DNA from: Trypanosoma brucei
Lineage: Eukaryota
NCBI GenBank assembly: GCA_000002445.1
Contig: CP000071.1
Location: 1,952,001-2,016,000, forward strand
Length of the DNA stretch: 64,000 nucleotides
Direction of reading: 5' to 3'
The notes below the pieces were generated by a model that was not told the DNA's origin, ran no database searches, and saw nothing but the letters and a program-made list of their open reading frames with translations. This document shows positions 19,562 through 55,561 of the stretch, in pieces. A program made the translations under genes and the position numbers. The stretch's first letter is position 1. Each line of letters opens with the position of its first letter.

Positions 19562-22500
19562 CTACACCATACCGGAAAGAAAACATGGAATCTCCCCAAA
19601 GCATATCGTCGGACCGCAGAAGCCGTCCAATATTTTGAGTGAACCCATTGACGCGGCCGTCGCCTCCGGTGATAATTGAGCACTGGGCTCACTATCTGTA
19701 TCGCTTGCCCCACCGAAGCCAAGGCCAAAGAGGCCCAACTGCTGCTGTTGCTGCCGGTATGCATCCTGGAGCGTCTGCCAGCGGTGTGCCCACTGCCAAA
19801 GCGTCCACGGTATGAAGAACTTGCACATTTCGCGGCATAGTGCCGGGCTCGCTTGAACAGGGACGCGCGCCGGGATCCCCATGTTTCCCCGAAACTGCTG
19901 CTGAAAGTCAATTAATTCCCGAGCCTCCTTCATCACATCCTTGATATGCGACCCCCGCATAAACTCATTTTCAGAATAACTATAAAGGAGCTCAGCCTTG
20001 ATATCCTCCGCATCGAATATCTGCTGCCGCACCGCATTGCGCACCTTCTTACGCATTGACTGCAGCTTCTGTATATGTAACAAAAAATCCTCCACGTCAC
20101 TGGAAGCACTCTCTTTGCGCTCCGGTGGAGATCCTCCAGAAACATTGTTGCCGTTACCCGCGCTCGCGCCGCTGCTGTTGGGCACCGTCAGGGACGTTAG
20201 TCGGACCAATGCGTTGATGGCCCCACTAAAAGGACCACTTGGTTGACCCCGTGGAGACGGACGGTTGATGGGCACCGGGGGAAAGGGTGCAGCCGTTGCC
20301 TCTGCCGTCTGAGGGGTTGCCGCTACTGTAGCGGCAACGGTAGCAACGGAGCTTCCTAAACTAGAGCCAACATCAGAGTCCTTCCAAAAATAGAAGAATA
20401 TCCCCATCGTGCTAGCGTAAACCAGCGGCGATACCCCAACCCCCACCGGTACCGTCAAGGGCTTCGTTATGTCTTTCATTGAAGGGCCATTGCGGAGCGG
20501 CCCACCGTATGCACTAAGAAGAATATGGGGCATGTGATTGTACGTTGCCACGTGGACGTCGCAGGCCTTATCAATACCCTGGAAACCGAAATCGATAGGC
20601 TTCACATCGCTGTTAACTGTTTTCCCTCTTCCAGGACAAGCCCCCGCAGCACCAGCAGCAGCCGGTACTATGAGGGATGGCAATGTAAGACCTGCCAGAG
20701 CTGCCACAACACATTCAACGGATTCCGTCCGGTTTGGCATTGCAACAACAGGGTCTGAGAACTGAAGAAGAAATATTCCATTTCCTCGCTCACAAGAGGA
20801 CATTGCAACATCAGGAAGCACCAAATCACCACCACAGTCGAGGCGTTTCGTTAGTATAGCACCCTGCGTGGAAGTTGTATCCGAGTTGTTGTTCAGGAGT
20901 GCCGCCCCATTAGACGGCGTGCCCTCTTGCCGGGATGTTCCCAATTGCGCTGCACCACGTAAATACGAACTCCACTCCTCCTGCACTTGTTGCTGCTGAA
21001 CTTGATGGGCTTCCCGGTGCGGCTGTGCGGGGGTTGGGGGAACGCCCTTCAATTCCAGCACAATCAGCGGAAAAGTTGGTAACGGTGGGTTATCATCGTG
21101 CAACGCCCCTGAACAAACGTGATTATCCAACTCCATAACGTGAAGCGACATCCGCAACTGCGGTTCATCCAGCGGAATTGATATAAGTCGTCTGTCTCGG
21201 CCCTTACCTCCAGTCAAATATGTTCGTTGCATAAACTCAAGGCAGTACGATGAAGCGTCGTTGGGCGGTCGCACAAGGCGGAGAACGCCCCACTGCCCAA
21301 CAGGGAGTGTATGTTTAGCCTTTGATGTCTGAGGAGGCAGCGACCGCTGCGCAGCAAACAGCTCCCGCATATCAAACCCGAAGGGTAAAAATGTTAACTC
21401 GCAGTAGACACCCTCGCACAGCAGCTTCTCCATACACGCCTCCTGCAGTTTGCCCTCATCACCATAGCATCCGGTAAGATTACGAACACTCTTAACCTCG
21501 TCACCACTGGACATCACCAGTGGAATGGGAGCAACAAGCATAGATGTGCCTTCGCCACTGCCAGAAGCGCTGTTGTTGGAAGTGGTATTGAAACTTCCTG
21601 AGGTGTGAAGAGTTTTGGTGAGTGAATTCCAACAATCCGGAGATTGCTCCAAAGATTTGTCAATGGCGCCTAGCAGTTTACTCACATTAACCACATGCTC
21701 CTTCACGCCCTTGTCGATACCTTCATACTGCTTAACCGCACGAGAATCTGCGGACGCCGGGGTTATAACGTTCTTCACGGTGTCTGCATCGAAACCAACG
21801 GACTCAAGGGCCCAGCGTATGGACTCCGGTCGGAGGAGAATTCCCTCCATCATCTCCAGCTCCAGTGCCACAGCGAGCATCAACTCCTGTCGCATCACCC
21901 GTGCCCACAGCCCTTCCCATATCTCATCACACCTCACAAAGCAAGTCGATTCCCTACGGAGGTGAGACATCTCCTTAGAAAGAAGCAGCTGCATGTTAAA
22001 AATAGATTCCATGCCGTCGTCAAAGTTACTATCAGCCATGGACTGGAGGCTGGTGCCGCTCAATGCCGAGCCGTCGGGTGGAGCGTGCAACTGCTCGTCC
22101 AAGCACTGTTCTAAATCCTCCTGTATCATTGTTCGCTGCCGTATGGCACGAATGCCTTCCAGCAGCAGCAGCTTCTCACCTGCACACTTGGTTACCTCCG
22201 CCGCCAAGTCTTTCAGCCGCTGCTTGATTTCCATAGCGTGCGCATCGCGAAGCACAGGCTGACTGTTCTCCTCGGCGAGTTGGGCATTACAGCACTTCAT
22301 TTTCTCCACAGTAAGCTTCATTTCTTCAATATCCTTCTTTCTGCGTTCGACAACGCTGTTGATGTACTCGGTTTGCTCACGCTTTATATCTTCCTTGACC
22401 CGCTGCAGATAATCATCATGAGCCTGATAGTGGTTCTGCAAGTGACGCTCCGTCAGTTTGGATATTATGTGGTCACGGATCCTAGTTCGCTTTTTCCTAC

Positions 22501-25021
22501 CAAGCGGCAGCAGCCGGAAATTCGACGCTTCTTCCAGTGAATACTCCACCAGAGAACCGTCGCTCGGCCTCGTCGACGAGGTCTCCGATAATAAACCCTC
22601 CGTTCTATCAGTGGAATCTTTGCTGAAGTGCGCAAGCCGGACCTCTTTACACAGTAGCATGTACTCCTCCATAGACTTGCGGTACTTTATGGCCCGCTCC
22701 TCAACGTCAGGGTCCTTAAGATCCTCAAACACAGCAACAAGGTCATCGGTGGCGTTAAGAAAGTTGCGGGACCTCACTGAGGCGTGCCGCAGTTGCTCGG
22801 CAAACTTCAGGGCCCCAAGAGTTTCTTTCGAGGCGCACGGTGACACATGAGCAAGGACGAGCACCCTGCCGTGCTCCAAACACGGCCGCAACAACCGTGT
22901 TAACTTTGAATCACGATAGGGCACGTGGTTAGAATGTTGATAAAGAGCCAGCAGTACCGCAGAGAACGCAGACAGAGATTTGTTTATGTACTGTGCCTCC
23001 CGCAGTTCAGTCCCCTCCACCTTCGATTGCTTAACGCACTCCGAACCAGCTAGGTCAACAACCGCTACGTACGAGTACGCGCTAGTTAGATATGTAGAGC
23101 TTGCTGAGCTGGTGCTATGACCACGAGTGGTAGTATTGGAGCATCCCCCATCAGCCCCTGTCGCTAGGGGGGAGGGAAGAGCTGTGGTAAAGCCGTCGAG
23201 CACCTCTGTCAACTCAAAGTGCAGCTGCAATATAAATATTGCGTGCGAGCGAGAACTTACATCGTTGCACTGATGAGCTTTTGTCACACGGTTGCGCGCT
23301 GCCATTGCATAGCAACGGTGGAAATCCGAGACAGAGTTGATACGTACTCCACCCCCTACTCGTGATGCACCGTCGTTCCCTTCTGCATCGGGACAACCGC
23401 CCCCATATCCCCCTCTACGCCCCGCATAGAATGCGGGTTCGTTGAGTTTCTGACAAAAAGCATCCAGCCCCGCAATATCCCCCAAAATGGGTATACGACG
23501 CTTCGTTGGATGGAGTAAGTCACGGAATTCATCCAAATACAACTCTACACCATAGAACGTTAAATCCTTCAATGTAAGCAGGGAGCCATGGGCACTTTTA
23601 TCGACGGATTTCTCCCGAAACGTTCCCGTGGGATTGGTGGCACGTTTGGTCACAAAGGGATGTTTGGCCATCAGTCCCTCATTTCGGTCAATTTGCACCA
23701 CGGAACCGCATCGATCAAGCAAAGAAAGCACAAGCCGAGGCAGCAATCCGATGCCCTCACTACAGACAAACTCCCTTCCACCTCCCTCTCCGGCCCCCTT
23801 CCCACAACTTGTAGCTTCCCCGAAACTGGCAAAGTTCTTTGGGCGATGGCTAGTTTGGGGACTGAGTTCACGAACATTCGAAGAGTCTACCTCCGCCTGG
23901 GATGAACTCGATAACTGTGAGCTTGCTGTTCCTTCACCTACGCACTCCAACCCGAGTGCCTTGCTCGTGATACGCTGTGAAGATACATCAACAGAGGTGG
24001 GGGTGCTGCTTGCATCCAACCTAGTGGTACCCGTTGGACGGCCGCCAGAGTAAGCCGATGCACTTGGTCTCGGTGTCGATTTCACGTCACGCCCAGAAAG
24101 TGGCAACAGTGGCTTCTTCACCGTACGTGCCGTCCGCTGCTTCCCTAATGGAGACACAGCTGAGCGCAGAGGCGAGGGAGATGGCCGTTTCCCTGATGCA
24201 CTTCCTATGACGCTATACGTTTTTCCGCTACCAGTAGGGCCGTAGCACACAATAGAAATGTTTTGCGCAAGGAGAGCCATGTCAACAAACTCAAGCACAC
24301 TCTCCTCAAAAACCTCTTCCTGTGTGGATTCCTCATTGTGGATGAAATCGAACCTAAAATGGTCCTCTCGGGCGGCACGGGCGCTACGGTGCATCGAAAC
24401 ATCCGGCGTAACAGCCCTTCGGGTAGGCTGCGCGGTGGAGAAGGTAAAGCCACTGATGTTGTGAAAGCTGGGAACTGGACTGTTGCACTCCACACCGCGG
24501 GCCCTGTCAGCCGCCAACTGCTCGTCCGACAGCAGCTCTACTGGAGTGCTCAGTGACATGGGCGGCAGTAGCCAAGGGGAAGTCCTCGGTCGAGAAGGTG
24601 ACTTCTGGACTTGATCACAGCTCTTCAGAAAGCGTGGCGGACGGTGCTGGGTTCGTTTCGGTGTGCACGGCGTCGATCGACATCGTGAACCGAACAGTAC
24701 ACAGGGTGATGTTGGCGTGCCTTCCATCGATCCTACAGTTCGGGTCGGTGATATGACGGTTCGACCATATAGAGGCTCCCGTACTGACTTGCCAATGCTT
24801 ACAACAATATTCTGCTGATCGAGACACCACACGCAGCGTTTTTCGTTCGATTCCCCTAAATACTCCAAAACAGGCCGGGTGCGAACGTGCATTACCGGTT
24901 CAACTATCCGACGCTGCTTTCCCTCGGTACCATATCGTCCCCGGTTAAACTCCCGGGGAGTCACGGCGACGCTGCTGGGTGCTGCCGCGGAGTCGTCAGT
25001 CGTATTAGCTCCACGTCGCAT
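19562..25021 (-). CDS. Kinesin-like protein (1819 aa); N-terminal motor domain interrupted by several large insertions, long tail
   Basis: Motor motifs HVRTRP (beta1), FRFDFIHNEESTQEEVFE, P-loop YGPTGSGKTYSV (~res 260), switch I SSRSHAIF (~590), switch II VDLAGSE (~657), INKSLSAF, VPYRDSKLTRLL. The spacing is far larger than in canonical motors. Confidence 0.85.
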   Translation of the reverse strand: MRRGANTTDDSAAAPSSVAVTPREFNRGRYGTEGKQRRIVEPVMHVRTRPVLEYLGESNEKRCVWCLDQQNIVVSIGKSVREPLYGRTVISPTRTVGSMEGTPTSPCVLFGSRCRSTPCTPKRTQHRPPRFLKSCDQVQKSPSRPRTSPWLLPPMSLSTPVELLSDEQLAADRARGVECNSPVPSFHNISGFTFSTAQPTRRAVTPDVSMHRSARAAREDHFRFDFIHNEESTQEEVFEESVLEFVDMALLAQNISIVCYGPTGSGKTYSVIGSASGKRPSPSPLRSAVSPLGKQRTARTVKKPLLPLSGRDVKSTPRPSASAYSGGRPTGTTRLDASSTPTSVDVSSQRITSKALGLECVGEGTASSQLSSSSQAEVDSSNVRELSPQTSHRPKNFASFGEATSCGKGAGEGGGREFVCSEGIGLLPRLVLSLLDRCGSVVQIDRNEGLMAKHPFVTKRATNPTGTFREKSVDKSAHGSLLTLKDLTFYGVELYLDEFRDLLHPTKRRIPILGDIAGLDAFCQKLNEPAFYAGRRGGYGGGCPDAEGNDGASRVGGGVRINSVSDFHRCYAMAARNRVTKAHQCNDVSSRSHAIFILQLHFELTEVLDGFTTALPSPLATGADGGCSNTTTRGHSTSSASSTYLTSAYSYVAVVDLAGSECVKQSKVEGTELREAQYINKSLSAFSAVLLALYQHSNHVPYRDSKLTRLLRPCLEHGRVLVLAHVSPCASKETLGALKFAEQLRHASVRSRNFLNATDDLVAVFEDLKDPDVEERAIKYRKSMEEYMLLCKEVRLAHFSKDSTDRTEGLLSETSSTRPSDGSLVEYSLEEASNFRLLPLGRKKRTRIRDHIISKLTERHLQNHYQAHDDYLQRVKEDIKREQTEYINSVVERRKKDIEEMKLTVEKMKCCNAQLAEENSQPVLRDAHAMEIKQRLKDLAAEVTKCAGEKLLLLEGIRAIRQRTMIQEDLEQCLDEQLHAPPDGSALSGTSLQSMADSNFDDGMESIFNMQLLLSKEMSHLRRESTCFVRCDEIWEGLWARVMRQELMLAVALELEMMEGILLRPESIRWALESVGFDADTVKNVITPASADSRAVKQYEGIDKGVKEHVVNVSKLLGAIDKSLEQSPDCWNSLTKTLHTSGSFNTTSNNSASGSGEGTSMLVAPIPLVMSSGDEVKSVRNLTGCYGDEGKLQEACMEKLLCEGVYCELTFLPFGFDMRELFAAQRSLPPQTSKAKHTLPVGQWGVLRLVRPPNDASSYCLEFMQRTYLTGGKGRDRRLISIPLDEPQLRMSLHVMELDNHVCSGALHDDNPPLPTFPLIVLELKGVPPTPAQPHREAHQVQQQQVQEEWSSYLRGAAQLGTSRQEGTPSNGAALLNNNSDTTSTQGAILTKRLDCGGDLVLPDVAMSSCERGNGIFLLQFSDPVVAMPNRTESVECVVAALAGLTLPSLIVPAAAGAAGACPGRGKTVNSDVKPIDFGFQGIDKACDVHVATYNHMPHILLSAYGGPLRNGPSMKDITKPLTVPVGVGVSPLVYASTMGIFFYFWKDSDVGSSLGSSVATVAATVAATPQTAEATAAPFPPVPINRPSPRGQPSGPFSGAINALVRLTSLTVPNSSGASAGNGNNVSGGSPPERKESASSDVEDFLLHIQKLQSMRKKVRNAVRQQIFDAEDIKAELLYSYSENEFMRGSHIKDVMKEARELIDFQQQFRGNMGIPARVPVQASPALCREMCKFFIPWTLWQWAHRWQTLQDAYRQQQQQLGLFGLGFGGASDTDSEPSAQLSPEATAASMGSLKILDGFCGPTICFGEIPCFLSGMV

Positions 25022-26049: not shown

Positions 26050-28716
26050 TCAGCAACGCTCGAAGACCTTGTACAGCTCATCCACAGAAACTACCGCCTG
26101 CACGGTTCCGTCGACCAGCGCGTCACACGGAGGCACAAAGAAGGTTGAGTTCGTCGCGCACGGCAAAAGGCCAAAGCGAATGGCATCACAAAATGGAGGA
26201 ACATCATCTTGCCGAATACCATCCTTTATTACATTCGGCAGCCACGAGCTGTGCAGCTGCACACCATACAATGTCTCTGCAATGTGCCGAGCTATGGCAG
26301 TGAAACACTCAATCTCCCCGGCATTATACGGAACTTCTGCTGCAAGCCGCCATATAAAAAGAGGCACAGCCCGAAGCGGGGGTGGCCACGAAGTGCCCAT
26401 AGAAAGTGGAAGCGCGATCAGGTGGCCATCAGCACTGATTTCCACGGCAAAGTAATCCTGCAACATGTAACGCCAGTTGCAGAGGCGGCGCCCCAAGCGA
26501 GACAGAAGAGAACCCGGTCCTCCGTCAGCGCGCTTTTGTGAAGGTGGAAGCTGAACGTCATTCTGTAGTGCAAAGGAAAGCAAATCTGACAAGTGTATAG
26601 GCTCCTCAAACGACAACTGAGGCACAGCAGAGAGAGAGGGGGTGGCCCACCGAAGGAAAATTCGCTGATACACGACGTGCCGGACGAGCCGTAGGGAATC
26701 AACAACGTAAAGTGTCGTACCCGATTGGGCGAAGAAGAGGTGCCCCTTAAGAACACCAACGTAGGCCAAATTCTGAAAAAGGGATTGAGCAGTTTGTGAT
26801 GTACCCGCGCGAATGTTCGATACAATGGTCGACACACTAGTGAGCAAAAGAAATCCCGCCTCCTCCTGGCTCCCAGCCGAATCAGCGCCCTCCACCATGC
26901 GCACAGCGGCATCCCCCGTCGATGCAGCCGCCTTGTTATCTTCAGCGGCGATATAATCCGACGCGCCGCACCCCACGCCCACCCCTGCGGTATCTATTAC
27001 AGAACTCACCACATCCTGAACCTCTTTTCTATGCTTCTTGAAATGCTCTATTGTGTACTCCACTTCTTCACCATCCTCATCGGTGGTATCTAACAGCAAA
27101 ACTGGGGTCATGGAAAGAGTCCCAGTGCTTTGGTTTTCCGACCAGCCCCTGGCCCCACTCCCGCTGCTGGCTTCGGCATCAGTCACGGTGGTTACTGCAG
27201 GGCTGGATGATGCAGCACACGTCAAACCCGAGGGAGCCTTACCATCATCGGCGGTTCTCGCAACCTGAAAATTTCCCCCAGTAGCTGTATCTTGAGATTC
27301 CATGGACGACCCAGTACCCGCACTGCGGACCTGTGCGTCACCGCCTCCACCTGCGCGCTCCTCAATGGACTCACTACGCAGCGGAGCATCTCCATTGCCC
27401 TCAGCGGTCGGCTTCGGCCGGCGCACGAAGGCGTCGAGCGCGCCTCGCTGTGGCTCCACCCGCACAAGTGAACAAGGTGCCACAGCAGCCACACCACCAC
27501 GGGCACCAGTGGGTAATGGGTTAAACGGCGAGGTTGAGGAATGAGGCTGCATCGGCTGGTTGGACCGTTGACTCTCCCTATCGCCTAGCATAACCGCCTT
27601 GGAGTGAATCTGCCGAATATCCATCTGCCTGCGAGCCGCAGACGCCTGAAGAGCACCCTGAACGCATTCGGACAGTTGCGATACAATTATTTCTTCATCA
27701 AGAAGACAGACCTCATGTTTTGTTGGGTGAATATTCACGTCCACCCTGTCAGGTGGCACCGTGACGAAGAGGACGGTAAACGGGCGGTTCCCGCGCACCA
27801 ACACACCACTGTACACTGCGTCAAGAGCCCGGCGAATGGCCGTACTGTCCACCAGCCGATTGTTGACGAATACGCAAAGATACGATTTACGGCTAGCGAG
27901 TGTTATATCGCTGGTGTAACCTGTGATAAGGAAACGCCCTTCACCCGATGGTCCAGACGTTGCCAGCACACTCTCTGGCGTGCAGTTATCTTCGCTAGGT
28001 GATTCACCGGTGCAACGAACCTCACACAGGCGGGAAGCGACCTCCCCACCCCAGTGCTGACGGATGTTCGCCAATGTGTTGGAATCCTTGGGGAAACACA
28101 CACAATTCTTTGTAACACCAGCAACACTACCATCGGAGCGACGGCACGAGAACGCGACGCTCGGGAAGGCTAGTGCATAGCGAGAAACCACGTCTTCAAC
28201 ACGGCTACACTCCTCAGAAGGCCGACTGAACGCCCGCCGGCGGACAGCAGCATTGTAAAACATCTTCTCCGCTCGTATACATGTCCCCGGATTTCCGGCA
28301 CATGGCTTCGGTTCCTCCTGCATCCGCCCGTCGACATAGTGGCAGCGCCACGCGACGGTGTCATTGTGGCGCATCGTGGTCACAGTTACTCGTGCCACGT
28401 ATGAAATCGAGCACAGTGCCTCACCACGGAACCCAAAAGAACGAATGTTATTCAGTTCATCAAAAGCGCGTAACTTGCTTGTGGCGTAACGTTCGCACAG
28501 CAATGGGAGATCACCAAAACGTATACCATGACCATCGTCTGTAACCTGCAGCAATTCTAAGCCACCATCCTGAACAACCACCTGAATGCACGTACTACCC
28601 GCATCCAGGGAGTTTTCCAATAACTCCTTCAGTGCAGCACTTGGACGCTGAACCACTTCGCCAGCGGCAATACGGTTGATAACATCTTCTGGTAGCCGCT
28701 CAATACCCCTCATCAA
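26050..28716 (-). CDS. MLH1: DNA mismatch repair protein MLH1 (MutL homolog) (888 aa)
   Basis: N-terminal GHKL ATPase region [38 protein letters not shown]...DDGHGI...CERYATSKL...FGFRGEAL is nearly collinear with human MLH1 ([28 protein letters not shown]...). Length and C-terminal dimerisation region are consistent. Confidence 0.9.
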   Translation of the reverse strand: [888 protein letters not shown]

Positions 28717-29256: not shown

Positions 29257-30117
29257 CTATCGGAACATCCTTCCAACACAGTAAAGCAGAAATTGATGGA
29301 GACCAATCTTCTCACAGTGTCCAGTCGTGATGCTCCTGAAGAGCTGCATTCCCGATTCGATATCTGGGACGTCACCGATTCTGACCGCCAGCTTGGAAAA
29401 GTCATCTGCATCCAGAAAACCGTCCCTGTCCCTGTCATACAGGCGAAACTGCATCATCACACAGTTATACTGCTGTTGAGACATTCCATAGAGCACACTA
29501 GGATCGGGACGGTTTTTGCTTAACCATGAAAGAAATTCTTCAAGACACAGCGTACCAGTTCCGTCTTCATCCATCTCGCGAAACATTCGGTCGATGTCAT
29601 CGTCAGTCCTAGCGAAGTTCAACCACCTGGCAAGGCGCCCCATCTCTTCACGACACAGATGCCCGCTCTCATCGCTATCAAAGAAGACAAACAATGCTAC
29701 GATGGAGTCGTATTCCTCTTGCGTGAGGCCGTACCGAAGCCACGGCGTATCTGCAACAGATTGTTGTCTCGACCCTTGACATGTAGACTGCGCATTCGTT
29801 GTAGATGGCGCTTCGGTACTGCCCGACCAACTGGCAGTGGGGCAAGTGTGTGAATCACTTCCTTCACGTCTGCCGGTCCAACCGCACGACGAACAGCGCA
29901 CAGGCAGGTTTTGCGCGAGGTTCACTAGGCTCCTGTGCGGCTGCTTTGTGCAATTTACAGGGGCACGGCACACGGGACACACCCTTGGGGCTCCAATGCA
30001 CTCTTGGCAAAAAATGTGACCACACGGTTGCAACTCCACGGGTTTTTTCCAGGAATCCAAACAAAGTGCGCAGCAGAGCTCGTCAGGGCAGTTAGTTGCC
30101 AGCATAAATGAAGTCAT
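29257..30117 (-). CDS. RING-finger (C3HC4) protein with three EF-hand Ca2+-binding loops (286 aa)
   Basis: RING: CALCLDSWKKPVELQPCGHIFCQECI...CPVCR. EF-hand loops: DSDESGHLCREE, DEDGTGTLCLEE, DRDRDGFLDADD. Confidence 0.75.
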   Translation of the reverse strand: MTSFMLATNCPDELCCALCLDSWKKPVELQPCGHIFCQECIGAPRVCPVCRAPVNCTKQPHRSLVNLAQNLPVRCSSCGWTGRREGSDSHTCPTASWSGSTEAPSTTNAQSTCQGSRQQSVADTPWLRYGLTQEEYDSIVALFVFFDSDESGHLCREEMGRLARWLNFARTDDDIDRMFREMDEDGTGTLCLEEFLSWLSKNRPDPSVLYGMSQQQYNCVMMQFRLYDRDRDGFLDADDFSKLAVRIGDVPDIESGMQLFRSITTGHCEKIGLHQFLLYCVGRMFR

Positions 30118-42775: not shown

Positions 42776-45700
42776 ATTTCAATATCGACGGAAGCTAGTT
42801 GATGCGGTGGAAAGTGATAGGGTTAGCAATATCAGACGGAATTTGGCTCTCGAATAAGACACTGAAAGTAAGAAGACTAGGTGCGTCACTAGAAAAGAAT
42901 ACGGCATACGTCATGCCCACATAAACACAAAGGCAAACCGGGAACATATTGTATGCCCCTTCATACCATCCAAGGATATAACAGTAGGGTTAAAGCACCA
43001 TGTGATCAGTATGACTGGGTTCAAAAAAAAATACTTACATCACGTATTAATAGTCTTCCAGGATGCAAAACATAACAGACTGACTATGGTGAGATTTGCC
43101 CCCACAGATGCCATGAGACTTCTGACCGTCGCTACCGCTGGATGTAGGAACGGCGATTTAGTGATATGCATCGAAGTGAGCAGACTGGATGCTGCAACAT
43201 TTTCAAACGGCATCCGATTCCCAGAAAATGTCTCTGAAAGTTCCAACTCAAGTAAAGGTGGAAAACACGCTAATGCCAGTGAGCAGTAGCTGATGCAACC
43301 CACGTAACGGTCAGAAGTGTATCAGAAATGATTCACGATGTTTTCTATATCACAGGTGGAGAGTGATTGTAAAAAAGAGGCTCAGATATTCCCTCTGGCC
43401 GAGACTGCAGAATCTAGGTGGGAAGCGCCGCATCGTAAAACAAAAATAACGCCTTCGGAGTCCACCATGTCGCGCAGAGAGTTTTCGGTGATATATTAGT
43501 TAGTGCCACGAAAAAAGAACGCAGTAAAAAAAAACCACATGGTACAAAAAGGTTGAATCACCTAACAAAGGAAAAGGGGAAAAAGAGCGTCCAACAACAA
43601 CCATTACACAAAGAAAAAAGTAAAAGAAATGTAACGACACACCACCAAAGTGTGTAGCAATCCTTTGCGGCCGCATACCTCCGACAAAGCGTACCACATA
43701 AATGCACTTCTTGAAGATATGCAAGTTTGCACAAACCCACTTGCCCGAATGTATGCATTTTCCTAGACCGCACCCTGTCCCCTCTTTTTTTCCTTTTTAC
43801 AGGTGGCTGAGATGCTATGAAAACATGGAGACCCTCCCCATCTCACAAACACACCCCCTCGCGAGAACACAAACAACGCTCTCGTTATAAACGGCCTGTT
43901 CCACGGCAAAGCGTGGCGTTAGGAAAGCTCTTACATATTCCTCATTACGACTAGGCGCGTCGAACGAAGAGGAAGGGGTACACGGGAGAGCACTTCCACA
44001 TCCTACCTCTTTCAAGCTTGTGCAGAAAGCGGATCGGGTCCCCCGTGGGAAAGCAACCATCTTCATGCAGCACTTTTAGGGTAGGACACCGCAGTCCGTG
44101 TGGGGAAGTTCCCTTGAGGCATACCTCCAGAGTATTAAGCTGAGTAGCTACATTGTGTCCGTGTTTGTACCTGACGAAAACAACTCGTTCGACGCCTTTC
44201 GTTGGGAAGTCTGGGCACCGGAGGAGTTTTGGAGCCAGATTTGGCACCAGGGCGGTTCCGTCACCCACATCTCCTCTTGCTGTGTCTCCCGCCGGGTGCT
44301 CATGCCTAGCGACTCTGGCCACCCCTGACATGGACATATTGCTTACCCCACCAACCGCACCTGTGGCACCTTCCACTCCGACTTTCGATTAATGCTTTCT
44401 TTTTTTGCGTGTGTGTAGCAGTTCCCGACCCCTTGCTGAGGAAGAAGGATGTTGATGTTTTCGCTATCTTCCTGTTCGCCCCCATCCCTGCACTCCTTGC
44501 CATCTTGACCTTCATTTACTAGGCTAGCCCTCTCATTGCCTCACATATTCCGCCCCCTAATTCCGGCGTCAGTATTCCCCCGATCAACGGGGGTGTTGCC
44601 TCTTCATATATTTGGGCACGTAACCCCAGTGACAGTGCCTTGGACATGTAGGATGTCTCGGTTGTTCGACCACCATATGAACATGCCACCACTACTCCGT
44701 GGTGACTCCCGCATACAAAACCTGTGATCTGCCAACTGAACATTCCACCCGAACGTTTCGAGCGTACTCAGCGTCCAAACATTTCTCCGACTGCTTGTGT
44801 GTCGCTCCCTGTGGAGCGATACCCGTCCTTTCCGCTCTTGCGCAGTTGGGCCTGCGCCTGCCACCCTTCGACTGGCGGAAAGCTGTTCACCAAAAGCGCT
44901 GGATTCGCCACCGGTCATGGGTTTTGCATAGGAATCGCGCGATTTCACGCGCTTTGTTTTTTCGCAGACACCTGGGAGATGCTGTCCCTCCACCTGTTGA
45001 AAGTTTTCAAACACGGATATTGGCATCCGTCTGACGGGGTCATCCTCCATATATTTCCTCTGGAGTGCCCCTGGAACGTACCCCCCGGATCTCGCACTTC
45101 TCTGCTCCAGGTTGGAAATGCCACTCTCTTCTTCCTGGGAATAGGTTCCGTTTGAGCACGGTAGATTGCGGATGGCATTATCTCACTCGTGGTGCGCACA
45201 CCTTACAACTACTAGGGAGGCCGTTCCGTCATCTTGGATGCACGCTATCTCCTGGGATGTGGCCGATCTGATTTCTCAAAAGAAGAAAAAGAAAAACATC
45301 TTCGGTTGGTGGCTCGCGGTACTGATTCCGCTGGTAGCCTACCAGCGGCATCAGAGGTTACACAGCCGTAATCACTGCCAGAGTTGTTTTTGGTTAACCC
45401 GTTCTGCCGATGCACCGTATCCTTGGAAAGCGATAACTGGGCAGGCATCTGCTTCGCGGTTCTTTTTCTCCCATGTGGCCATATCCCTTTGGCTATTTTC
45501 ATTCGCGCGGTGGAGCCACAAACCAAAACTATTCCCCCGCCCGTTAACCCTCTGAGGCAAAGGGGAGCCACAAAAGTTGTTGGTGGTTCACGCTTACTAC
45601 CGCAACCGGTGGTGTTTCCACCACAGCCCAGCGGTTGCCGCTCAGTTGCGGCCACACTGGAACCCTCTTGAAAGCAGGCTGCTGTGACAGTAAGCGGGTT

Positions 45701-47222
45701 GGCAACAGCTACGCTGGGGCAAGGGTTATTGTTGAAGCATCCAAGCTAGGTGGGTCCCCTACATCTTTTGAGTGACGGTGGCTGAGAATGGATATCCCAC
45801 CTTGATTTGTCAGCAGCTCACACCAGCAAACTTCTAAAGTGCTGTTATTATCGTCATGCCGCGATGGTTCAGAGAAGAGAATGGTGTTGGCTGCTCGCCA
45901 TTTTCTTTTTTTTTTTTGGGGGGGGGTCTGGGTGGGGCACAGGCGTGTACGCCTCCCTCTCGAGAGTCAACGCCCAGTCGTTTATAAGACCGTGACGTGG
46001 CCAGAGTGGCCCATGGTAGGTATAATAGATTTCCCTCTGAACATTATGTTATAAAGCGGGGAAATTTGTGCTAACACTCAATTTTACGTTTGCCATACAC
46101 TGCCTTTTTGGCACTGTTAAACTGTCACTTGCTCAGGAATGCCAGTGCTGGTGGTTTGGATTCTCGTACACAGTGTTTACCCGGATGTTTACAGCGTTTC
46201 CGGCAGCGTTGGTTGACCGTTTACTGTAATCTCGAATGACTTCTGATCTTGGGTTGCAGGTGTTTGCTTACCCAACGTGGCTGTGACGGAGGTCCCAGTG
46301 ATGTGTTTTCTCCCCCGTCACTTGTAAACGCTGGAGGCTACTTAATATCTGTTGATAGGTTTTTAAAGTGGGGAAGGAAAAGTATCACCTCTGCAAGGAA
46401 ATTAACAACATCCCGCTTATCTCGTCTCGCAATGCGTCACTAGCGGGATGCTTCCCCCTTCGCACTGAAGTAGGAAACTCTGCCATTTTTAAAAAAAACC
46501 TGGCAAAAAGTAGATGCACAGTGACCTCTTGTAAAGCGGCGTTGTTAACTTAATCCGTGCGTTTTTGTTTAGTCGCTTTCAAGCGACATTTCTGTGTATA
46601 TCTAGGCATGTGTGAGGATCCTCTCCATATCCTCGCCGGTCTGATGTTTGCTTTGTTGCGCACCTGAGCGTTAACCGGGCATCCACGGGGTTATGTTGAA
46701 CACCTAACTGTGTGATTCTGACAGGTGAAATACTGTTTATCCTTGCCGAGTGATTTATGTTGATTAATGGCTGAGTGACAAACGTCCCTGATTATGCTAA
46801 CAGCACCGTCAGACAACTGACACTCGCTTGATGGTTCACATAGTGTCGTCACACTCTCTACATTCCATAGCCGGCGCTGTACTTAGATTTGTTTGTTTTG
46901 CAGTCTTACTTTCACAAGGAGTAACGACCTTACTTGAAGTATATATGTGTGTGCTGTGCTTGATTGACGGAGTTTCCCAAGGGAGCTGTTTCTCACCTCT
47001 TCCTTTGTGGTGCCGTATTTACGGTGGCAAGTGCGACCAGTCACGCTTCGTATTGGTGGTGGTGGTTCTTTGTCGGCCACTTTAACCGCCGCTTTTGGGC
47101 ACTAATAAATTTATCGGTACCATTTTATAAGGTGTGTATATTTTTTTGCCCGCAGTTGGCACGTATAAAACAGCTTCCGGCTCCTTTCCTTTTCTATTTG
47201 CTCATCATTACGTAGAGTTTCG
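42776..47222. promoter_or_regulatory. Divergent strand-switch region; candidate RNA polymerase II transcription start region for both polycistronic arrays
   Basis: 4.4 kb with no ORF over 150 aa. Every gene to the left is minus-strand and every gene to the right is plus-strand. Plus-strand intergenic composition flips from purine-rich (left array) to pyrimidine-rich (right array). Contains the T12-G9 run and GT-rich stretches. Confidence 0.6.
45906..45937. repeat. T12 homopolymer followed by a G9 run and GGG-T-GGGG (G-quadruplex-capable)
   Basis: 'ttttttttttttgggggggggtctgggtgggg' is visible directly. Runs of G are the one sequence feature repeatedly noted at trypanosome divergent strand-switch regions. 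Confidence 0.85.
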
Positions 47223-48518
47223 ATGGCCGAACCGTTCTCGACGATCCTTGGAACCGACGGCAGCGGTGGTCGGTGTAAATACCTGAACAAAGGGATTGTA
47301 GGATTGGGTTCCTATGGTGAAGCATATGTAGCGGAGAGCGTGGAGGATGGGTCTCTTTGTGTAGCAAAAGTCATGGATTTAAGCAAGATGTCTCAGCGGG
47401 ATAAGCGGTACGCGCAGAGCGAAATCAAGTGTCTGGCCAACTGTAATCATCCAAACATTATTCGTTACATTGAGGACCACGAGGAAAATGATCGGTTGCT
47501 TATTGTCATGGAATTCGCTGACTCAGGCAACCTTGATGAGCAAATAAAGCTTCGGGGCACAGGAGATGCGCGCTACTTTCAAGAACACGAGGCCTTGTTT
47601 CTCTTCTTACAACTGTGTCTTGCCCTTGACTACATCCACAGCCATAAGATGCTGCACCGCGATATCAAATCTGCCAATGTGCTGCTCACATCAACAGGAC
47701 TAGTTAAGCTGGGAGACTTTGGATTCAGTCATCAATATGAAGACACCGTATCAGGCGTCGTTGCAAGTACGTTCTGTGGCACACCGTACTACCTGGCACC
47801 AGAGCTGTGGAATAATAAAAGGTACAATAAGAAGGCTGATGTGTGGTCGTTGGGTGTTTTATTGTACGAAATTATGGGCATGAAGAAACCATTTTCAGCA
47901 AGTAATTTGAAAGGTTTGATGTCGAAGGTTCTTGCTGGCACATATGCTCCCTTGCCGGATAGCTTCTCGTCCGAATTTAAACGTGTTGTTGATGGTGTCC
48001 TTGTAGCGGACCCTAATGACAGACCAAGTGTAAGGGAAATTTTTCAGATACCGTACATCAATAAGGGTCTTAAATTATTTGTGCAAGCACTGAAGAAAAA
48101 CGAACGAATCTCGGACTCGGTGAAGGAGGTCCTCGTAACACAGGTCAGCGAAATCTTATCCTCGGAAGTGAGCCCTGATGCACATCGTTTCCTGGTATCA
48201 CAAATTAACTACGACGTTACACACCGAGGACATGTAAACAAACTGGGTGGTGGAAACGGGAAGTCGTGGAAACCGAGGTTTTTGCAGATTGTTCGCGGAC
48301 AGCTCATTTTAACAGATGATGAAGAAGGAAATAATCCAAAAGGCCTAAACCTTGAACAAGTGCAGGGTGCTTGCCCGGTGCCTCACAGTACTGCAAAGAG
48401 AGATTTTGTGTTTGCCCTCAATACGGTCGGCGGAAAGGGTATGTGGTTTCAGGCTGTATCACATGGGGACATGGAAATGTGGGTTCACGCGATTCAACGT
48501 GGTATAGGTGTCGCCTAA
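47223..48518 (+). CDS. NEK (NIMA-related) Ser/Thr kinase with C-terminal PH domain (431 aa)
   Basis: Kinase motifs LGSYGEAYVA, CVAKVMDL, HRDIKSANVLL, DFGFS, GTPYYLAPELW. C-terminal approx. 100 aa KSWKPRFLQIVRGQLILTDD...DFVFALNT...WFQAVSHGDMEMWVHAIQRG matches the PH-domain pattern. Confidence 0.85.
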   Translation: MAEPFSTILGTDGSGGRCKYLNKGIVGLGSYGEAYVAESVEDGSLCVAKVMDLSKMSQRDKRYAQSEIKCLANCNHPNIIRYIEDHEENDRLLIVMEFADSGNLDEQIKLRGTGDARYFQEHEALFLFLQLCLALDYIHSHKMLHRDIKSANVLLTSTGLVKLGDFGFSHQYEDTVSGVVASTFCGTPYYLAPELWNNKRYNKKADVWSLGVLLYEIMGMKKPFSASNLKGLMSKVLAGTYAPLPDSFSSEFKRVVDGVLVADPNDRPSVREIFQIPYINKGLKLFVQALKKNERISDSVKEVLVTQVSEILSSEVSPDAHRFLVSQINYDVTHRGHVNKLGGGNGKSWKPRFLQIVRGQLILTDDEEGNNPKGLNLEQVQGACPVPHSTAKRDFVFALNTVGGKGMWFQAVSHGDMEMWVHAIQRGIGVA

Positions 48519-55370: not shown

Positions 55371-55561
55371 GGAGTGAAATGAATGTGGTCGAGGAAGGAA
55401 ACAGCCAACTTCTGAAACAAGACGAGTGGTGTGAACCACTCCGCTTGAAGCATCATCGGGATAGTTGGGCTCAAGGGGGGTTCTCTTCGTGTGCTGTTCT
55501 GTACTTTTTTCTATCCTCCACATTGCATTCACTTGTTCTGGTCGTTATCACTCTTCTAGGG

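What the first reader, a model, noticed from the sequence alone, without database searches (positions are those of the whole stretch)
22774..24904. Kinesin whose motor domain is expanded to ~710 aa by multiple large low-complexity insertions
All canonical motor motifs are present and in order (beta1 VRTRP, P-loop GPTGSGKT, switch I SSRSH, switch II DLAGSE, VPYRDSKLTRLL), but spacing is abnormal. About 130 aa lie between beta1 and the FxFD block. About 160-320 aa of S/P/T/G-rich sequence lie between the P-loop and switch I (normally ~110-150 aa in total). About 55 aa separate switch I and switch II (normally ~35). Loop insertions of this size in loops L2/L5/L8-type positions would alter microtubule binding or regulation. 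It is followed by a >1000-aa tail. This looks like a kinetoplastid-specific 'orphan' kinesin with unusual motor architecture.
Basis: partly seen in the sequence, partly recalled or inferred. Interest (0 to 1): 0.55.

Follow-up and report, generated by a model that had tools for sequence, protein, structure and literature searches.

The report
Trypanosome kinesin with doubled-size motor
This is a real Trypanosoma brucei kinesin gene (by position Tb927.8.6830) whose motor has all its catalytic motifs but is stretched to about 710 residues by five floppy loop insertions that sit at the same sites in every related parasite, an extreme and undescribed form of a known kind of motor decoration.

Summary
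ORF 19562..25021 (-) encodes the 1819-aa T. brucei TREU927 "kinesin, putative" (XP_847513.1 / Q57TT0). By gene order it is Tb927.8.6830, which TrypTag places at the anterior cell tip.

All kinesin motifs are present and in order, but the motor spans residues about 39-750. An AlphaFold2 model gives a confident kinesin core (pLDDT above 90; Foldseek TM about 0.7 to kinesin-1, -5 and -8). Five segments have pLDDT below 50:
- L2: 80-213
- L5: 279-416
- L6: 449-472
- L8: 537-552
- L10: 618-642

Every orthologue found has enlarged motif spacings in the same intervals (T. grayi, T. cruzi, Porcisia, Leptomonas, Phytomonas, Angomonas and unnamed assemblies). Lengths vary widely (L2 about 96-593 aa, L5 62-213 aa) and the sequences are not conserved. 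The L2 insert is net basic everywhere and enriched in [ST]P in Trypanosoma.

The gene is not an assembly error, a repeat expansion or an intron. The motor fits no named kinesin family.

Most likely it is an active N-terminal motor carrying disordered loops, with the basic L2 acting as a phospho-tunable microtubule tether. That function is inferred, not shown. Large loop inserts are known (kinesin-6, Cin8, Plasmodium kinesin-5), but the scale, the number of sites and the large L5 insert are unusual.

The parts
19562..25021 (-). Complete CDS, 1819 aa plus stop. T. brucei TREU927 'kinesin, putative' XP_847513.1 / Q57TT0; by position Tb927.8.6830.
   Evidence: ORF list, translation, exact-sequence look-up. 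Gene ID inferred from neighbours: MLH1 = Tb927.8.6840 and NrkA / MCC = .6930 / .6970.
24908..25021 (-). Residues 1-38: short, basic, disordered N-terminal extension.
   Evidence: pLDDT below 50; net charge +4.
24785..24907 (-). Residues 39-79: beta1 with VRTRP (N4 motif), family signature RP.L..LGE, beta1a and beta1b.
   Evidence: pLDDT 79-95 with strands 43-48, 64-66 and 71-76; signature restricted to this family within the sample.
24383..24784 (-). Residues 80-213: L2 insertion of about 134 aa. Disordered, S/P/R/T-rich, net charge about +10, ten [ST]P sites.
   Evidence: pLDDT below 50. Not conserved in sequence. Present at about 96-593 aa in all orthologues and net basic in all. [ST]P count 10 against 4.3 in shuffles, p=0.003.
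24188..24382 (-). Residues 214-278: beta1c, beta2 (FRFDF), alpha1, beta3, P-loop GPTGSGKT, alpha2a.
   Evidence: pLDDT 91-96; motif positions; aligned to KIFC3 and Kar3.
23774..24187 (-). Residues 279-416: L5 insertion of about 138 aa that interrupts helix alpha2. Disordered, S/G-rich. A weak acidic-then-aromatic motif (NFASFGE, about 395-401) lies near its C-terminal end.
   Evidence: pLDDT below 50. 62-213 aa in orthologues. Motif alignment. Flanks align to the L5 base of cut7.
23678..23773 (-). Residues 417-448: alpha2b (GLLPRLV...).
   Evidence: Helix 426-436 with pLDDT 90-95.
23606..23677 (-). Residues 449-472: L6 insertion, about 24 aa disordered (36-78 aa between sequence anchors in orthologues).
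   Evidence: pLDDT below 50; lengths in orthologues.
23414..23605 (-). Residues 473-536: beta4, beta5 and the first part of L8.
   Evidence: Strands 479-495 and 498-501 and helix 519-527, pLDDT about 90.
23366..23413 (-). Residues 537-552: glycine-rich extension within L8.
   Evidence: pLDDT below 50 at 537-541 and 548-552.
23171..23365 (-). Residues 553-617: alpha3, L9, switch I (NDVSSRSH), beta6.
   Evidence: Model; motif positions; alignment to KIFC3.
23096..23170 (-). Residues 618-642: L10 insertion at the tip of the beta6-beta7 hairpin.
   Evidence: pLDDT below 50; 16-55 aa between sequence anchors in orthologues.
22778..23095 (-). Residues 643-748: beta7, switch II DLAGSE, L11, alpha4, L12/alpha5 (VPYRDSKLTRLL followed by the family signature RPCLE), beta8, alpha6.
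   Evidence: pLDDT 72-94. Best-conserved part in orthologues and against PDB kinesins. RPCLE signature.
22688..22777 (-). Residues 749-778: putative neck linker and the start of the neck helix.
   Evidence: Short strand 749-751 at low confidence, then helices 755-778.
21833..22687 (-). Residues 779-1063: post-motor block conserved across trypanosomatids, probably stalk or a family-specific domain.
   Evidence: Collinear BLAST blocks reaching about residue 1063-1154 in all orthologues.
20672..21454 (-). Residues about 1190-1450: conserved beta-rich tail block, with only a faint PH-like resemblance.
   Evidence: AlphaFold2 tail model has pLDDT 64-80 only in this block. Foldseek gives no significant hit; the top non-significant hits are PH-like domains. 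Conserved blocks.
19742..20074 (-). Residues about 1650-1760: conserved helical C-terminal block (FR.K.R..V.QQI.DAEDI ... VPWT.WQWA.RW).
   Evidence: BLAST blocks in all orthologues; invariant columns in alignment A2.

Best explanation
**What it is (shown).** This is a genuine, translated, trypanosomatid-wide ungrouped kinesin with an N-terminal motor; by position it is Tb927.8.6830. The catalytic core is intact. Five surface loops (L2, L5, L6, L8, L10) have expanded into intrinsically disordered, compositionally biased segments that roughly double the size of the motor.

**How it most likely works (inferred).**
- The core is a working microtubule-stimulated ATPase, and the neck follows the motor as in plus-end-directed N-kinesins.
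- The L2 insert is basic and rich in proline, serine and threonine, and L2 emerges next to the microtubule-binding face. It probably acts as a second, electrostatic tether to the acidic tubulin tails.
- The dense [ST]P sites in the Trypanosoma L2 would let proline-directed kinases weaken that tether.
- The large L5 insert sits over the nucleotide pocket. It probably slows or gates nucleotide exchange, or serves as a docking surface through its short acidic-aromatic motif.
- The net result would be a slow, high-affinity motor that organises microtubules or accumulates at tips, working at the anterior cell tip, rather than a fast cargo transporter.

**My probabilities.**
- Architecture and orthology: about 0.9.
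- Active motor: about 0.7.
- L2 as a tether: about 0.4.
- Phospho-regulation of L2: about 0.3.
- A specific regulatory role for L5: about 0.2.
For: **Identity.** The sequence matches XP_847513.1 / Q57TT0 exactly. Proteins of the same 1819-aa length occur in T. b. gambiense, T. equiperdum and T. b. equiperdum.

**Kinesin core.**
- Pfam Kinesin scores 175 bits.
- All N1-N4 and L12/alpha5 motifs are present and conserved in 12 family members.
- The GPT variant of the P-loop also occurs in 15 of 129 other kinesins.
- AlphaFold2 gives the core pLDDT above 90.
- Foldseek target-normalised TM is 0.63-0.76 to kinesin-1, -5, -8, -3 and -4 structures.

**Inserts.**
- pLDDT is below 50 at 80-213, 279-416, 449-472, 537-552 and 618-642.
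- The same inter-motif intervals are enlarged in every orthologue: RxRP to P-loop 174-671 aa and P-loop to switch I 300-441 aa.
- Identity in the inserts is about 2 of 14 sequences, against 8-13 of 14 in the core.
- The insert DNA is open only in the motor's frame; the other five frames carry 1-7 stops each.
- There are no tandem repeats.

**L2 properties.**
- Net charge is positive in all 12 family members examined, between +3 and +22 in the reliably delimited rows.
- [ST]P exceeds composition-matched shuffles in T. brucei (p=0.003), T. grayi (p=0.001), T. cruzi (p=0.024) and the environmental relative P0023 (p=0.022).

**Precedents from the literature.**
- The MKLP2 L2 insert contacts alpha-tubulin and its L8 insert contacts beta-tubulin (PMC5602324).
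- The disordered 99-residue L8 insert of Cin8 drives non-canonical microtubule binding (PMC5582858).
- The basic, P/S/T-rich disordered N-terminal extension of T. brucei KLIF is a second microtubule-binding element needed for bundling (bioRxiv 10.1101/2021.11.04.467292).

**Localisation.** TrypTag lists Tb927.8.6830 under cortex 'Anterior tip', and its text says that kinesins localise there (PMC9981465).
Against: - There is no biochemical, RNAi or phosphoproteomic evidence for this protein in anything I could search.
- The inserts have no conserved sequence, and their lengths vary up to six-fold. That pattern is also what neutral drift in tolerated loops would produce.
- [ST]P enrichment is not significant in Leishmaniinae, Phytomonas or Bodo.
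- The L5 motif is weak and lies in a low-confidence region.
- The Bodo relative has a short L5 and a very long L8 instead, so no single insert is indispensable.
- The gene ID, and therefore the localisation, rests on positional inference and not on a sequence match.
- Placing the loops relative to the microtubule relies on general knowledge of the kinesin fold. I did not dock the model.
Confidence: 0.55

Rival explanations
1. The inserts are neutral, tolerated expansions. They are disordered, compositionally biased sequence that accumulates at permissive surface loops, as in many parasite proteins, and has no specific function. The motor works despite them.
For: - The inserts have no sequence conservation.
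- Lengths vary widely: L2 about 96-593 aa and L5 62-213 aa.
- Whole orthologues swell to 2400-6702 aa, with extra sequence also at the N-terminus and in the tail. That points to general expansion and not to loop-specific selection.
- Bodo distributes its expansions differently.
- Precedent: the 105-aa L6 insert of Plasmodium kinesin-5 is poorly conserved and dispensable for folding and mechanochemistry (PMC8526983).
Against: - The same loop intervals are expanded in every lineage, and none has reverted to normal length.
- The positive net charge of L2 is maintained in all members despite complete sequence turnover.
- [ST]P exceeds compositional expectation in Trypanosoma and in a distant environmental relative.
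- L5 and L2 are functionally sensitive loops in other kinesins.
Confidence: 0.3
2. It is a catalytically crippled pseudo-motor. The huge L5 and L2 inserts have disabled motility, and the protein acts as a static microtubule-binding scaffold at the anterior tip.
For: - The motor is very divergent from all solved kinesins (about 110 bits).
- It has a P-loop Q-to-P change.
- A 138-aa insert sits in L5, next to the nucleotide pocket.
Against: - Every nucleotide-binding and switch motif is strictly conserved across the family. That would be unexpected if catalysis had been lost.
- The GPT P-loop occurs in 15 of 129 other kinesins.
- The core is modelled at pLDDT above 90 with canonical topology.
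Confidence: 0.12
3. It is an artefact. The extra sequence would reflect an assembly error, a wrong gene model, or unspliced introns within a normal kinesin gene.
For: None beyond the unusual spacing itself.
Against: - The 1819-aa length is identical in four independent T. brucei-group assemblies, with at most 8 substitutions.
- Expansions in the same intervals occur in more than 10 other species.
- The reading frame is uninterrupted through all inserts while the other frames are closed.
- There are no repeats.
- From general knowledge, cis-splicing is almost absent in trypanosomatids.
Confidence: 0.01

Closest known systems
Kinesin-6 (MKLP2/KIF20A) motor domain
   Same: The catalytic motifs are intact, but the motor is enlarged by family-specific loop inserts (L2 +18, L6 +99, L8 +5, L12 +6) plus an N-terminal extension. 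The MKLP2 L2 and L8 inserts touch tubulin (PMC5602324).
   Different: MKLP2 is about 40% larger than kinesin-1, whereas this motor is about 115% larger. Here the dominant inserts are in L2 (about 134 aa) and L5 (about 138 aa), not in L6. Part of the MKLP2 L6 insert forms an ordered subdomain, whereas these inserts are predicted to be fully disordered. The two share no specific sequence affinity.
S. cerevisiae kinesin-5 Cin8 (99-residue L8 insert)
   Same: [quoted passage not shown] The insert-free core of the T. brucei motor scores best against the fission-yeast kinesin-5 cut7, and the base of its L5 aligns with that of cut7.
   Different: Cin8 has one insert, in L8. This protein has five expanded loops, and L8 is only slightly extended. 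There is no evidence here for kinesin-5 tail features or for tetramer formation. At 113 bits, the similarity to kinesin-5 is no better than the similarity to a kinesin-14.
Plasmodium falciparum kinesin-5 (105-aa L6 low-complexity insert, enlarged L5)
   Same: It is a parasite kinesin with a compositionally biased, poorly conserved insert in an otherwise canonical fold. The insert is dispensable for folding (PMC8526983).
   Different: The Plasmodium insert is N/K-rich and sits in one loop, typical of Plasmodium low-complexity regions. Here the composition is S/P/T/G/R-rich, five loops are involved, and the L2 charge is conserved.
T. brucei KLIF (Tb927.8.4950) and other trypanosome orphan kinesins (KIN-A to KIN-G)
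   Same: KLIF is a kinetoplastid orphan N-kinesin with a basic, P/S/T-rich, phosphorylated disordered element that acts as a second microtubule-binding site. It works at the cell-tip and furrow cytoskeleton.
   Different: KLIF's disordered element is an N-terminal extension, not an intra-motor insert, and its motif positions differ (RxRA at 145, switch I at about 341). KLIF and KIN-G are different genes. I found no functional study of this protein.

Membership tests
Kinesin superfamily (Pfam PF00225) | Profile match above the curated threshold | tested here: met
   175.2 bits against a cut-off of 29.3, E=2e-51, split into separate stretches by the inserts.
Kinesin superfamily (Pfam PF00225) | Nucleotide-binding motifs N1 (GxxxxGKT/S), N2/switch I (NxxSSRSH), N3/switch II (DxxGxE) and N4 (RxRP), in order | tested here: met
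   GPTGSGKT at 261, NDVSSRSH ending at 593, DLAGSE at 656 and VRTRP at 46. All are conserved in 12 family members.
Kinesin superfamily (Pfam PF00225) | Microtubule-binding elements L11/alpha4/L12/alpha5 | tested here: met
   INKSLSA at 679-685 and HVPYRDSKLTRLL at 699-711 align to KIFC3, Kar3 and cut7. pLDDT is 83-94 in this region.
Kinesin superfamily (Pfam PF00225) | Kinesin motor fold | tested here: met
   The AlphaFold2 core has pLDDT above 90. Foldseek E=1e-17 to 1e-20 with target-normalised TM 0.63-0.76 to many kinesin motors.
Kinesin superfamily (Pfam PF00225) | Microtubule-stimulated ATPase activity or motility | not testable with these tools
   This needs recombinant protein assays.
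Any named kinesin family (kinesin-1 to -17, kinetoplastid X1/X2) | Clear preferential similarity or phylogenetic grouping with one family | tested here: not met
   Using the insert-free core, the best PDB hits are cut7 (kinesin-5, 113 bits) and KIFC3 (kinesin-14, 110 bits). With the full region, KIFC3, Kar3, KIF22 and KIF4 all score 90-105 bits.
Kinesin-6 | Large characteristic L6 insertion (about 100 aa in MKLP2) | tested here: not met
   L6 has only about 24 disordered residues here (36-78 aa between anchors in orthologues). The major inserts are in L2 and L5.
Kinesin-5 | Family tail features (BimC box) and bipolar tetramer formation | not tested
   Pfam finds nothing in the tail. I did not search for the BimC motif specifically, and oligomeric state cannot be tested here.
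This kinetoplastid orphan family (orthologues of Tb927.8.6830) | Signatures RxRP.L..LGE after beta1 and RLLRPCLE after alpha5, expanded L2, and collinear conserved tail blocks | tested here: met
   Within the 150-sequence sample, the RPCLE-type signature is confined to the orthologues, Bodo P0031 and two unnamed sequences (P0032, P0039). The RP.L..LGE signature is confined to the orthologues and Bodo, with one loose match (P0074). P0023 carries near-variants of both. Tail blocks are collinear in the orthologues.

The most novel reading that the evidence does not exclude
The conserved large L5 insert (62-213 aa in trypanosomatids, against an 18-residue 'long' L5 in Eg5 as I recall it) and the basic, [ST]P-rich L2 insert may together form a lineage-specific regulatory module built into the motor head. 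In this reading, L2 is a phosphorylation-gated second microtubule-binding site. L5 is an allosteric gate or partner-docking arm that uses its acidic-aromatic motif. Together they would switch the motor between diffusive or tethered and stepping modes at the anterior cell tip, where the new cortical microtubule array and the cytokinesis machinery are organised.
Probability: 0.15. Interest if true: 0.65.

Novelty: new variant of a known kind. Interest (0 to 1): 0.42.

Why it matters
Kinesin loops L2, L5 and L8 control microtubule binding, nucleotide turnover and drug binding. A motor that keeps every catalytic motif while carrying about 340 residues of disordered sequence in five loops is a natural experiment in how much the kinesin head tolerates. 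The inserts have been retained since before the trypanosomatids diverged, so it is also a test of whether disordered loops can act as built-in regulators.

The protein is parasite-lineage-specific and appears to sit at the anterior cell tip, a site tied to cortical microtubule organisation and cytokinesis in T. brucei. No functional study of it turned up. It is a tractable target for tagging, RNAi and loop-deletion experiments, and its unusual L5 pocket is of the type exploited by kinesin-5 inhibitors.

If the inserts prove neutral, the result still documents unusual loop tolerance in a motor.

Tried and rejected
- **Word-indexed homology search.** The search with residues 1-774 returned only four distant kinesins and not even the query's own cluster. 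Generic kinesins or low-complexity words probably swamped it. The exhaustive representative search found the orthologues instead.
- **Exact-contig look-up.** It found nothing.
- **KLIF.** I suspected KLIF (Tb927.8.4950) from memory. Its motif positions differ, so I rejected it. KIN-G is Tb927.6.1770. The Leishmania 'DEATH kinesin' LmxKIN29 is a 610-aa protein and unrelated.
- **Literature.** Searches for Q57TT0 and for Tb927.8.6820-6860 gave no main-text hits. The supplement of the 22-kinesin localisation screen and one phosphoproteome supplement are not held. Wickstead & Gull 2006 is not held.
- **Tail domain.** The AlphaFold2 model is poor (mean pLDDT 42). Foldseek against the PDB gave no significant match, and the top non-significant hits are PH-like domains. 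The afdb50 library was unavailable.
- **[ST]P enrichment as a family-wide property.** It is significant only in Trypanosoma and one environmental relative. In that script a looser RxRP pattern gave wrong L2 boundaries for Leptomonas and Lg18, so I ignored those two rows.
- **Repeat expansion.** Rejected as the origin of the inserts.
- **Subspecies substitutions.** There are too few of them (at most 8) to compare constraint in the inserts and the core.


Full report
**1. What is at the coordinates**

The region 22774..24904 lies inside one long ORF on the minus strand, 19562..25021, which encodes 1819 aa. The finding's coordinates correspond to residues 40-750.

The protein is identical to T. 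brucei brucei TREU927 'kinesin, putative' (XP_847513.1 / AAZ13447.1 / UniProt Q57TT0), on a 2.48-Mb chromosome. Proteins of the same length occur in T. b. gambiense, T. equiperdum and T. b. equiperdum, with at most 8 substitutions.

**2. Which gene it is**

The next gene at higher window coordinates (26050..28716, minus strand) is MLH1, which is Tb927.8.6840 (PMC4470938). Further along, after a strand-switch region, come three genes:
- a kinase with a PH domain at 47223..48518
- a CFAP43-like gene at 48856..53238
- a biotin carboxylase at 55379..57598

[quoted passage not shown] Gene numbers therefore rise with window coordinates, so the kinesin is Tb927.8.6830. This is a positional inference, not a sequence match.

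The TrypTag source data list Tb927.8.6830 among 18 cortex proteins at the 'Anterior tip', and the paper states that kinesins localise there (PMC9981465). No paper in the searchable library mentions the gene in its main text. It is not KLIF (Tb927.8.4950) and not KIN-G (Tb927.6.1770).

**3. Checking the observation**

The motifs are present and in order:

| Motif | Residues |
|---|---|
| VRTRP | 46-50 |
| FRFDF | 222-226 |
| GPTGSGKT | 261-268 |
| SSRSH | 589-593 |
| DLAGSE | 656-661 |
| VPYRDSKLTRLL | 700-711 |

Pfam Kinesin scores 175 bits, but the match is broken into pieces. PDB kinesins align in three separate blocks.

I compared the spacing with a convenience sample of 104-124 other kinesins from the hit list:

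| Interval | This protein | Sample median |
|---|---|---|
| RxRP to P-loop | 215 | 82.5 |
| P-loop to switch I | 328 | 122.5 (maximum 257) |
| Switch I to switch II | 67 | 33 |

**4. Anatomy**

I built an AlphaFold2 model of residues 1-779 from a 16-sequence alignment of orthologues and generic kinesins. The core is confident, with block-mean pLDDT mostly 83-96 and canonical strand and helix order. Five internal segments have pLDDT below 50, as does the N-terminus (residues 1-38).

| Segment | Residues | Position in the fold |
|---|---|---|
| L2 | 80-213 | between beta1b and beta1c |
| L5 | 279-416 | interrupts alpha2 |
| L6 | 449-472 | between alpha2b and beta4 |
| L8 | 537-552 | within L8 |
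| L10 | 618-642 | tip of the beta6-beta7 hairpin |

- Foldseek matches kinesin-1, -3, -4, -5, -8 and -14 motors at E about 1e-17 to 1e-20, with target-normalised TM 0.63-0.76.
- The inserts are biased toward S/P/T/G/R but are not repeats.
- Their DNA is open only in the motor's frame; the other five frames carry 1-7 stops each.
- After alpha6 there is a short low-confidence strand and then helices from residue 755. This fits an N-kinesin neck followed by a stalk.

**5. Relatives**

An exhaustive search of 1.84 billion representative proteins found clear orthologues:
- T. grayi
- T. cruzi
- Porcisia hertigi (3286 aa)
- Leptomonas pyrrhocoris (3273 aa)
- Phytomonas (2410 aa)
- Angomonas deanei
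- several unnamed assemblies, up to 6702 aa

All of them are collinear through the motor blocks, a strongly conserved post-motor block (to about residue 1063) and several tail blocks.

Every orthologue has enlarged spacings in the same intervals: RxRP to P-loop is 174-671 aa and P-loop to switch I is 300-441 aa. The inserts themselves are essentially unalignable, with about 2 of 14 sequences identical to T. brucei per column against 8-13 of 14 in the core.

Two short signatures mark the family: RxRP.L..LGE and RLLRPCLE. They extend it to a Bodo saltans kinesin, which has an expanded L2 and L8 but a short L5. Two environmental sequences carry the same or near-variant signatures, with an L2 insert of about 50-65 aa rich in TP/SP and basic residues, and otherwise near-normal spacing. 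Expansion therefore appears to have begun with L2. The large L5 looks trypanosomatid-specific.

**6. Properties that survive sequence turnover**

- The L2 insert is net positive in all 12 family members examined, between +3 and +22 in the reliably delimited rows.
- [ST]P dipeptides exceed composition-matched shuffles in T. brucei (10 against 4.3, p=0.003), T. grayi (p=0.001), T. cruzi (p=0.024) and one environmental relative (p=0.022). They do not in Leishmaniinae, Phytomonas or Bodo.
- Near the C-terminal end of L5, most orthologues have an acidic run followed by an aromatic-x-x-hydrophobic motif: NFASFGE, EWSGLLD, GWTKLGSGW, EWPMFDHTW and similar. This signal is weak.

**7. Is the motor likely active?**

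All nucleotide-binding and switch motifs are conserved across the family. The only unusual feature is GPT in place of GQT in the P-loop, and that variant also occurs in 15 of 129 other kinesins. This argues for retained catalysis, but it was not tested.

**8. Family placement**

With the inserts removed, the 395-aa core scores only about 110 bits against the best solved kinesins. These are cut7 (a kinesin-5) and KIFC3 (a kinesin-14), which belong to different families. 'Orphan' is therefore the appropriate label. I did not build a formal tree.

**9. Mechanism (inferred)**

From general knowledge of the kinesin fold and from the MKLP2 cryo-EM study, L2 and L8 flank the microtubule interface. 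The MKLP2 L2 insert contacts alpha-tubulin and its L8 insert contacts beta-tubulin, while L6 points away from the microtubule. L5 lies next to the nucleotide pocket.

A basic, disordered, [ST]P-rich L2 is therefore best read as a second, electrostatic microtubule tether that can be tuned by phosphorylation. Two precedents support this reading. KLIF's basic disordered N-terminal extension acts this way, and the disordered L8 insert of Cin8 changes microtubule binding.

The L5 insert most plausibly modulates nucleotide turnover or serves as a docking arm. With the anterior-tip localisation, this suggests a slow motor that organises microtubules or accumulates at tips.

The main rival is that the inserts are neutral, tolerated expansions, as argued for the L6 insert of Plasmodium kinesin-5. 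The extreme length variation, and the general inflation of orthologues to 2400-6702 aa, support this rival.

**10. Novelty and verdict**

Large intra-motor inserts are known:
- Kinesin-6 motors are about 40% larger than kinesin-1, with a 99-aa L6 insert.
- Cin8 has a 99-residue L8 insert.
- Plasmodium kinesin-5 has a 105-aa L6 insert.

This protein is more extreme. It has five expanded loops and about 340 extra residues, which roughly doubles the motor. One of the two largest inserts is in L5, for which I know of no comparable case; that last point rests on memory, not on a survey.

The gene is annotated and has been localised in a genome-wide screen, but I found no description of this architecture and no functional study. 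I rate it a new variant of a known kind, of moderate interest.

Noticed in passing
window ~42800..47200: A divergent strand-switch region. ORFs are on the minus strand up to about 42.8 kb and on the plus strand from 47.2 kb. GC skew changes sign near 45-46 kb, and GC falls to 0.44-0.46 at about 38-44 kb and again at 46-50 kb. It coincides with the published start of the chromosome 4/8 duplicon at NrkA Tb927.8.6930.
   Followed up: partly
window 20672..21454 (protein residues ~1190-1450): A conserved beta-rich block in the kinesin tail. It is the only moderately confident part of the tail model (pLDDT 64-80). Foldseek gives no significant hit, but the top non-significant hits are PH-like domains (ZFYVE21 C-terminal region, Sec3, OCRL, SHARPIN).
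   Followed up: partly
window 23774..24187 (L5 insert, around residues 395-401): A weak acidic run followed by an aromatic-x-x-hydrophobic motif recurs near the C-terminal end of the otherwise unalignable L5 insert in most orthologues. It is a candidate short linear motif.
   Followed up: partly
orthologues P0012, P0013, P0014, P0020 (not in window): Orthologues from Leishmaniinae and from unnamed assemblies carry an additional 350-630-aa N-terminal extension before beta1 and reach 2690-6702 aa in total. The whole protein, not only the motor loops, inflates in these lineages.
   Followed up: partly
P0031 (Bodo saltans kinesin CUF04801.1): This is a probable bodonid member of the family, sharing the RP.L..LGE and RLLRPCLE signatures. 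Its expansion pattern is different: long L2 and L8, an extra insert before beta3, and a short L5.
   Followed up: partly
P0022 (1106-aa database protein, not in window): This hit contains seven tandem copies of the switch I to switch II segment at a spacing of about 131 aa. It may be an assembly or gene-model artefact, or a genuinely repeated partial motor.
   Followed up: no
window 48856..53238 (+): A 1460-aa CFAP43-type protein (Pfam CFAP43_N, WD40_CFAP43 and CC_Cfap43, E down to 1e-157). It corresponds to Tb927.8.6940, the chromosome 8 copy of a near-identical chromosome 4/8 duplicated pair.
   Followed up: no
window 29257..30117 (-): A 286-aa protein that combines an N-terminal RING finger with EF-hand pairs. 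This is an uncommon domain pairing. By position it is Tb927.8.6850.
   Followed up: no
tool behaviour: The word-indexed homology search did not return the query's own cluster or any trypanosomatid orthologue for this compositionally biased query, although both are in the collection.
   Followed up: yes
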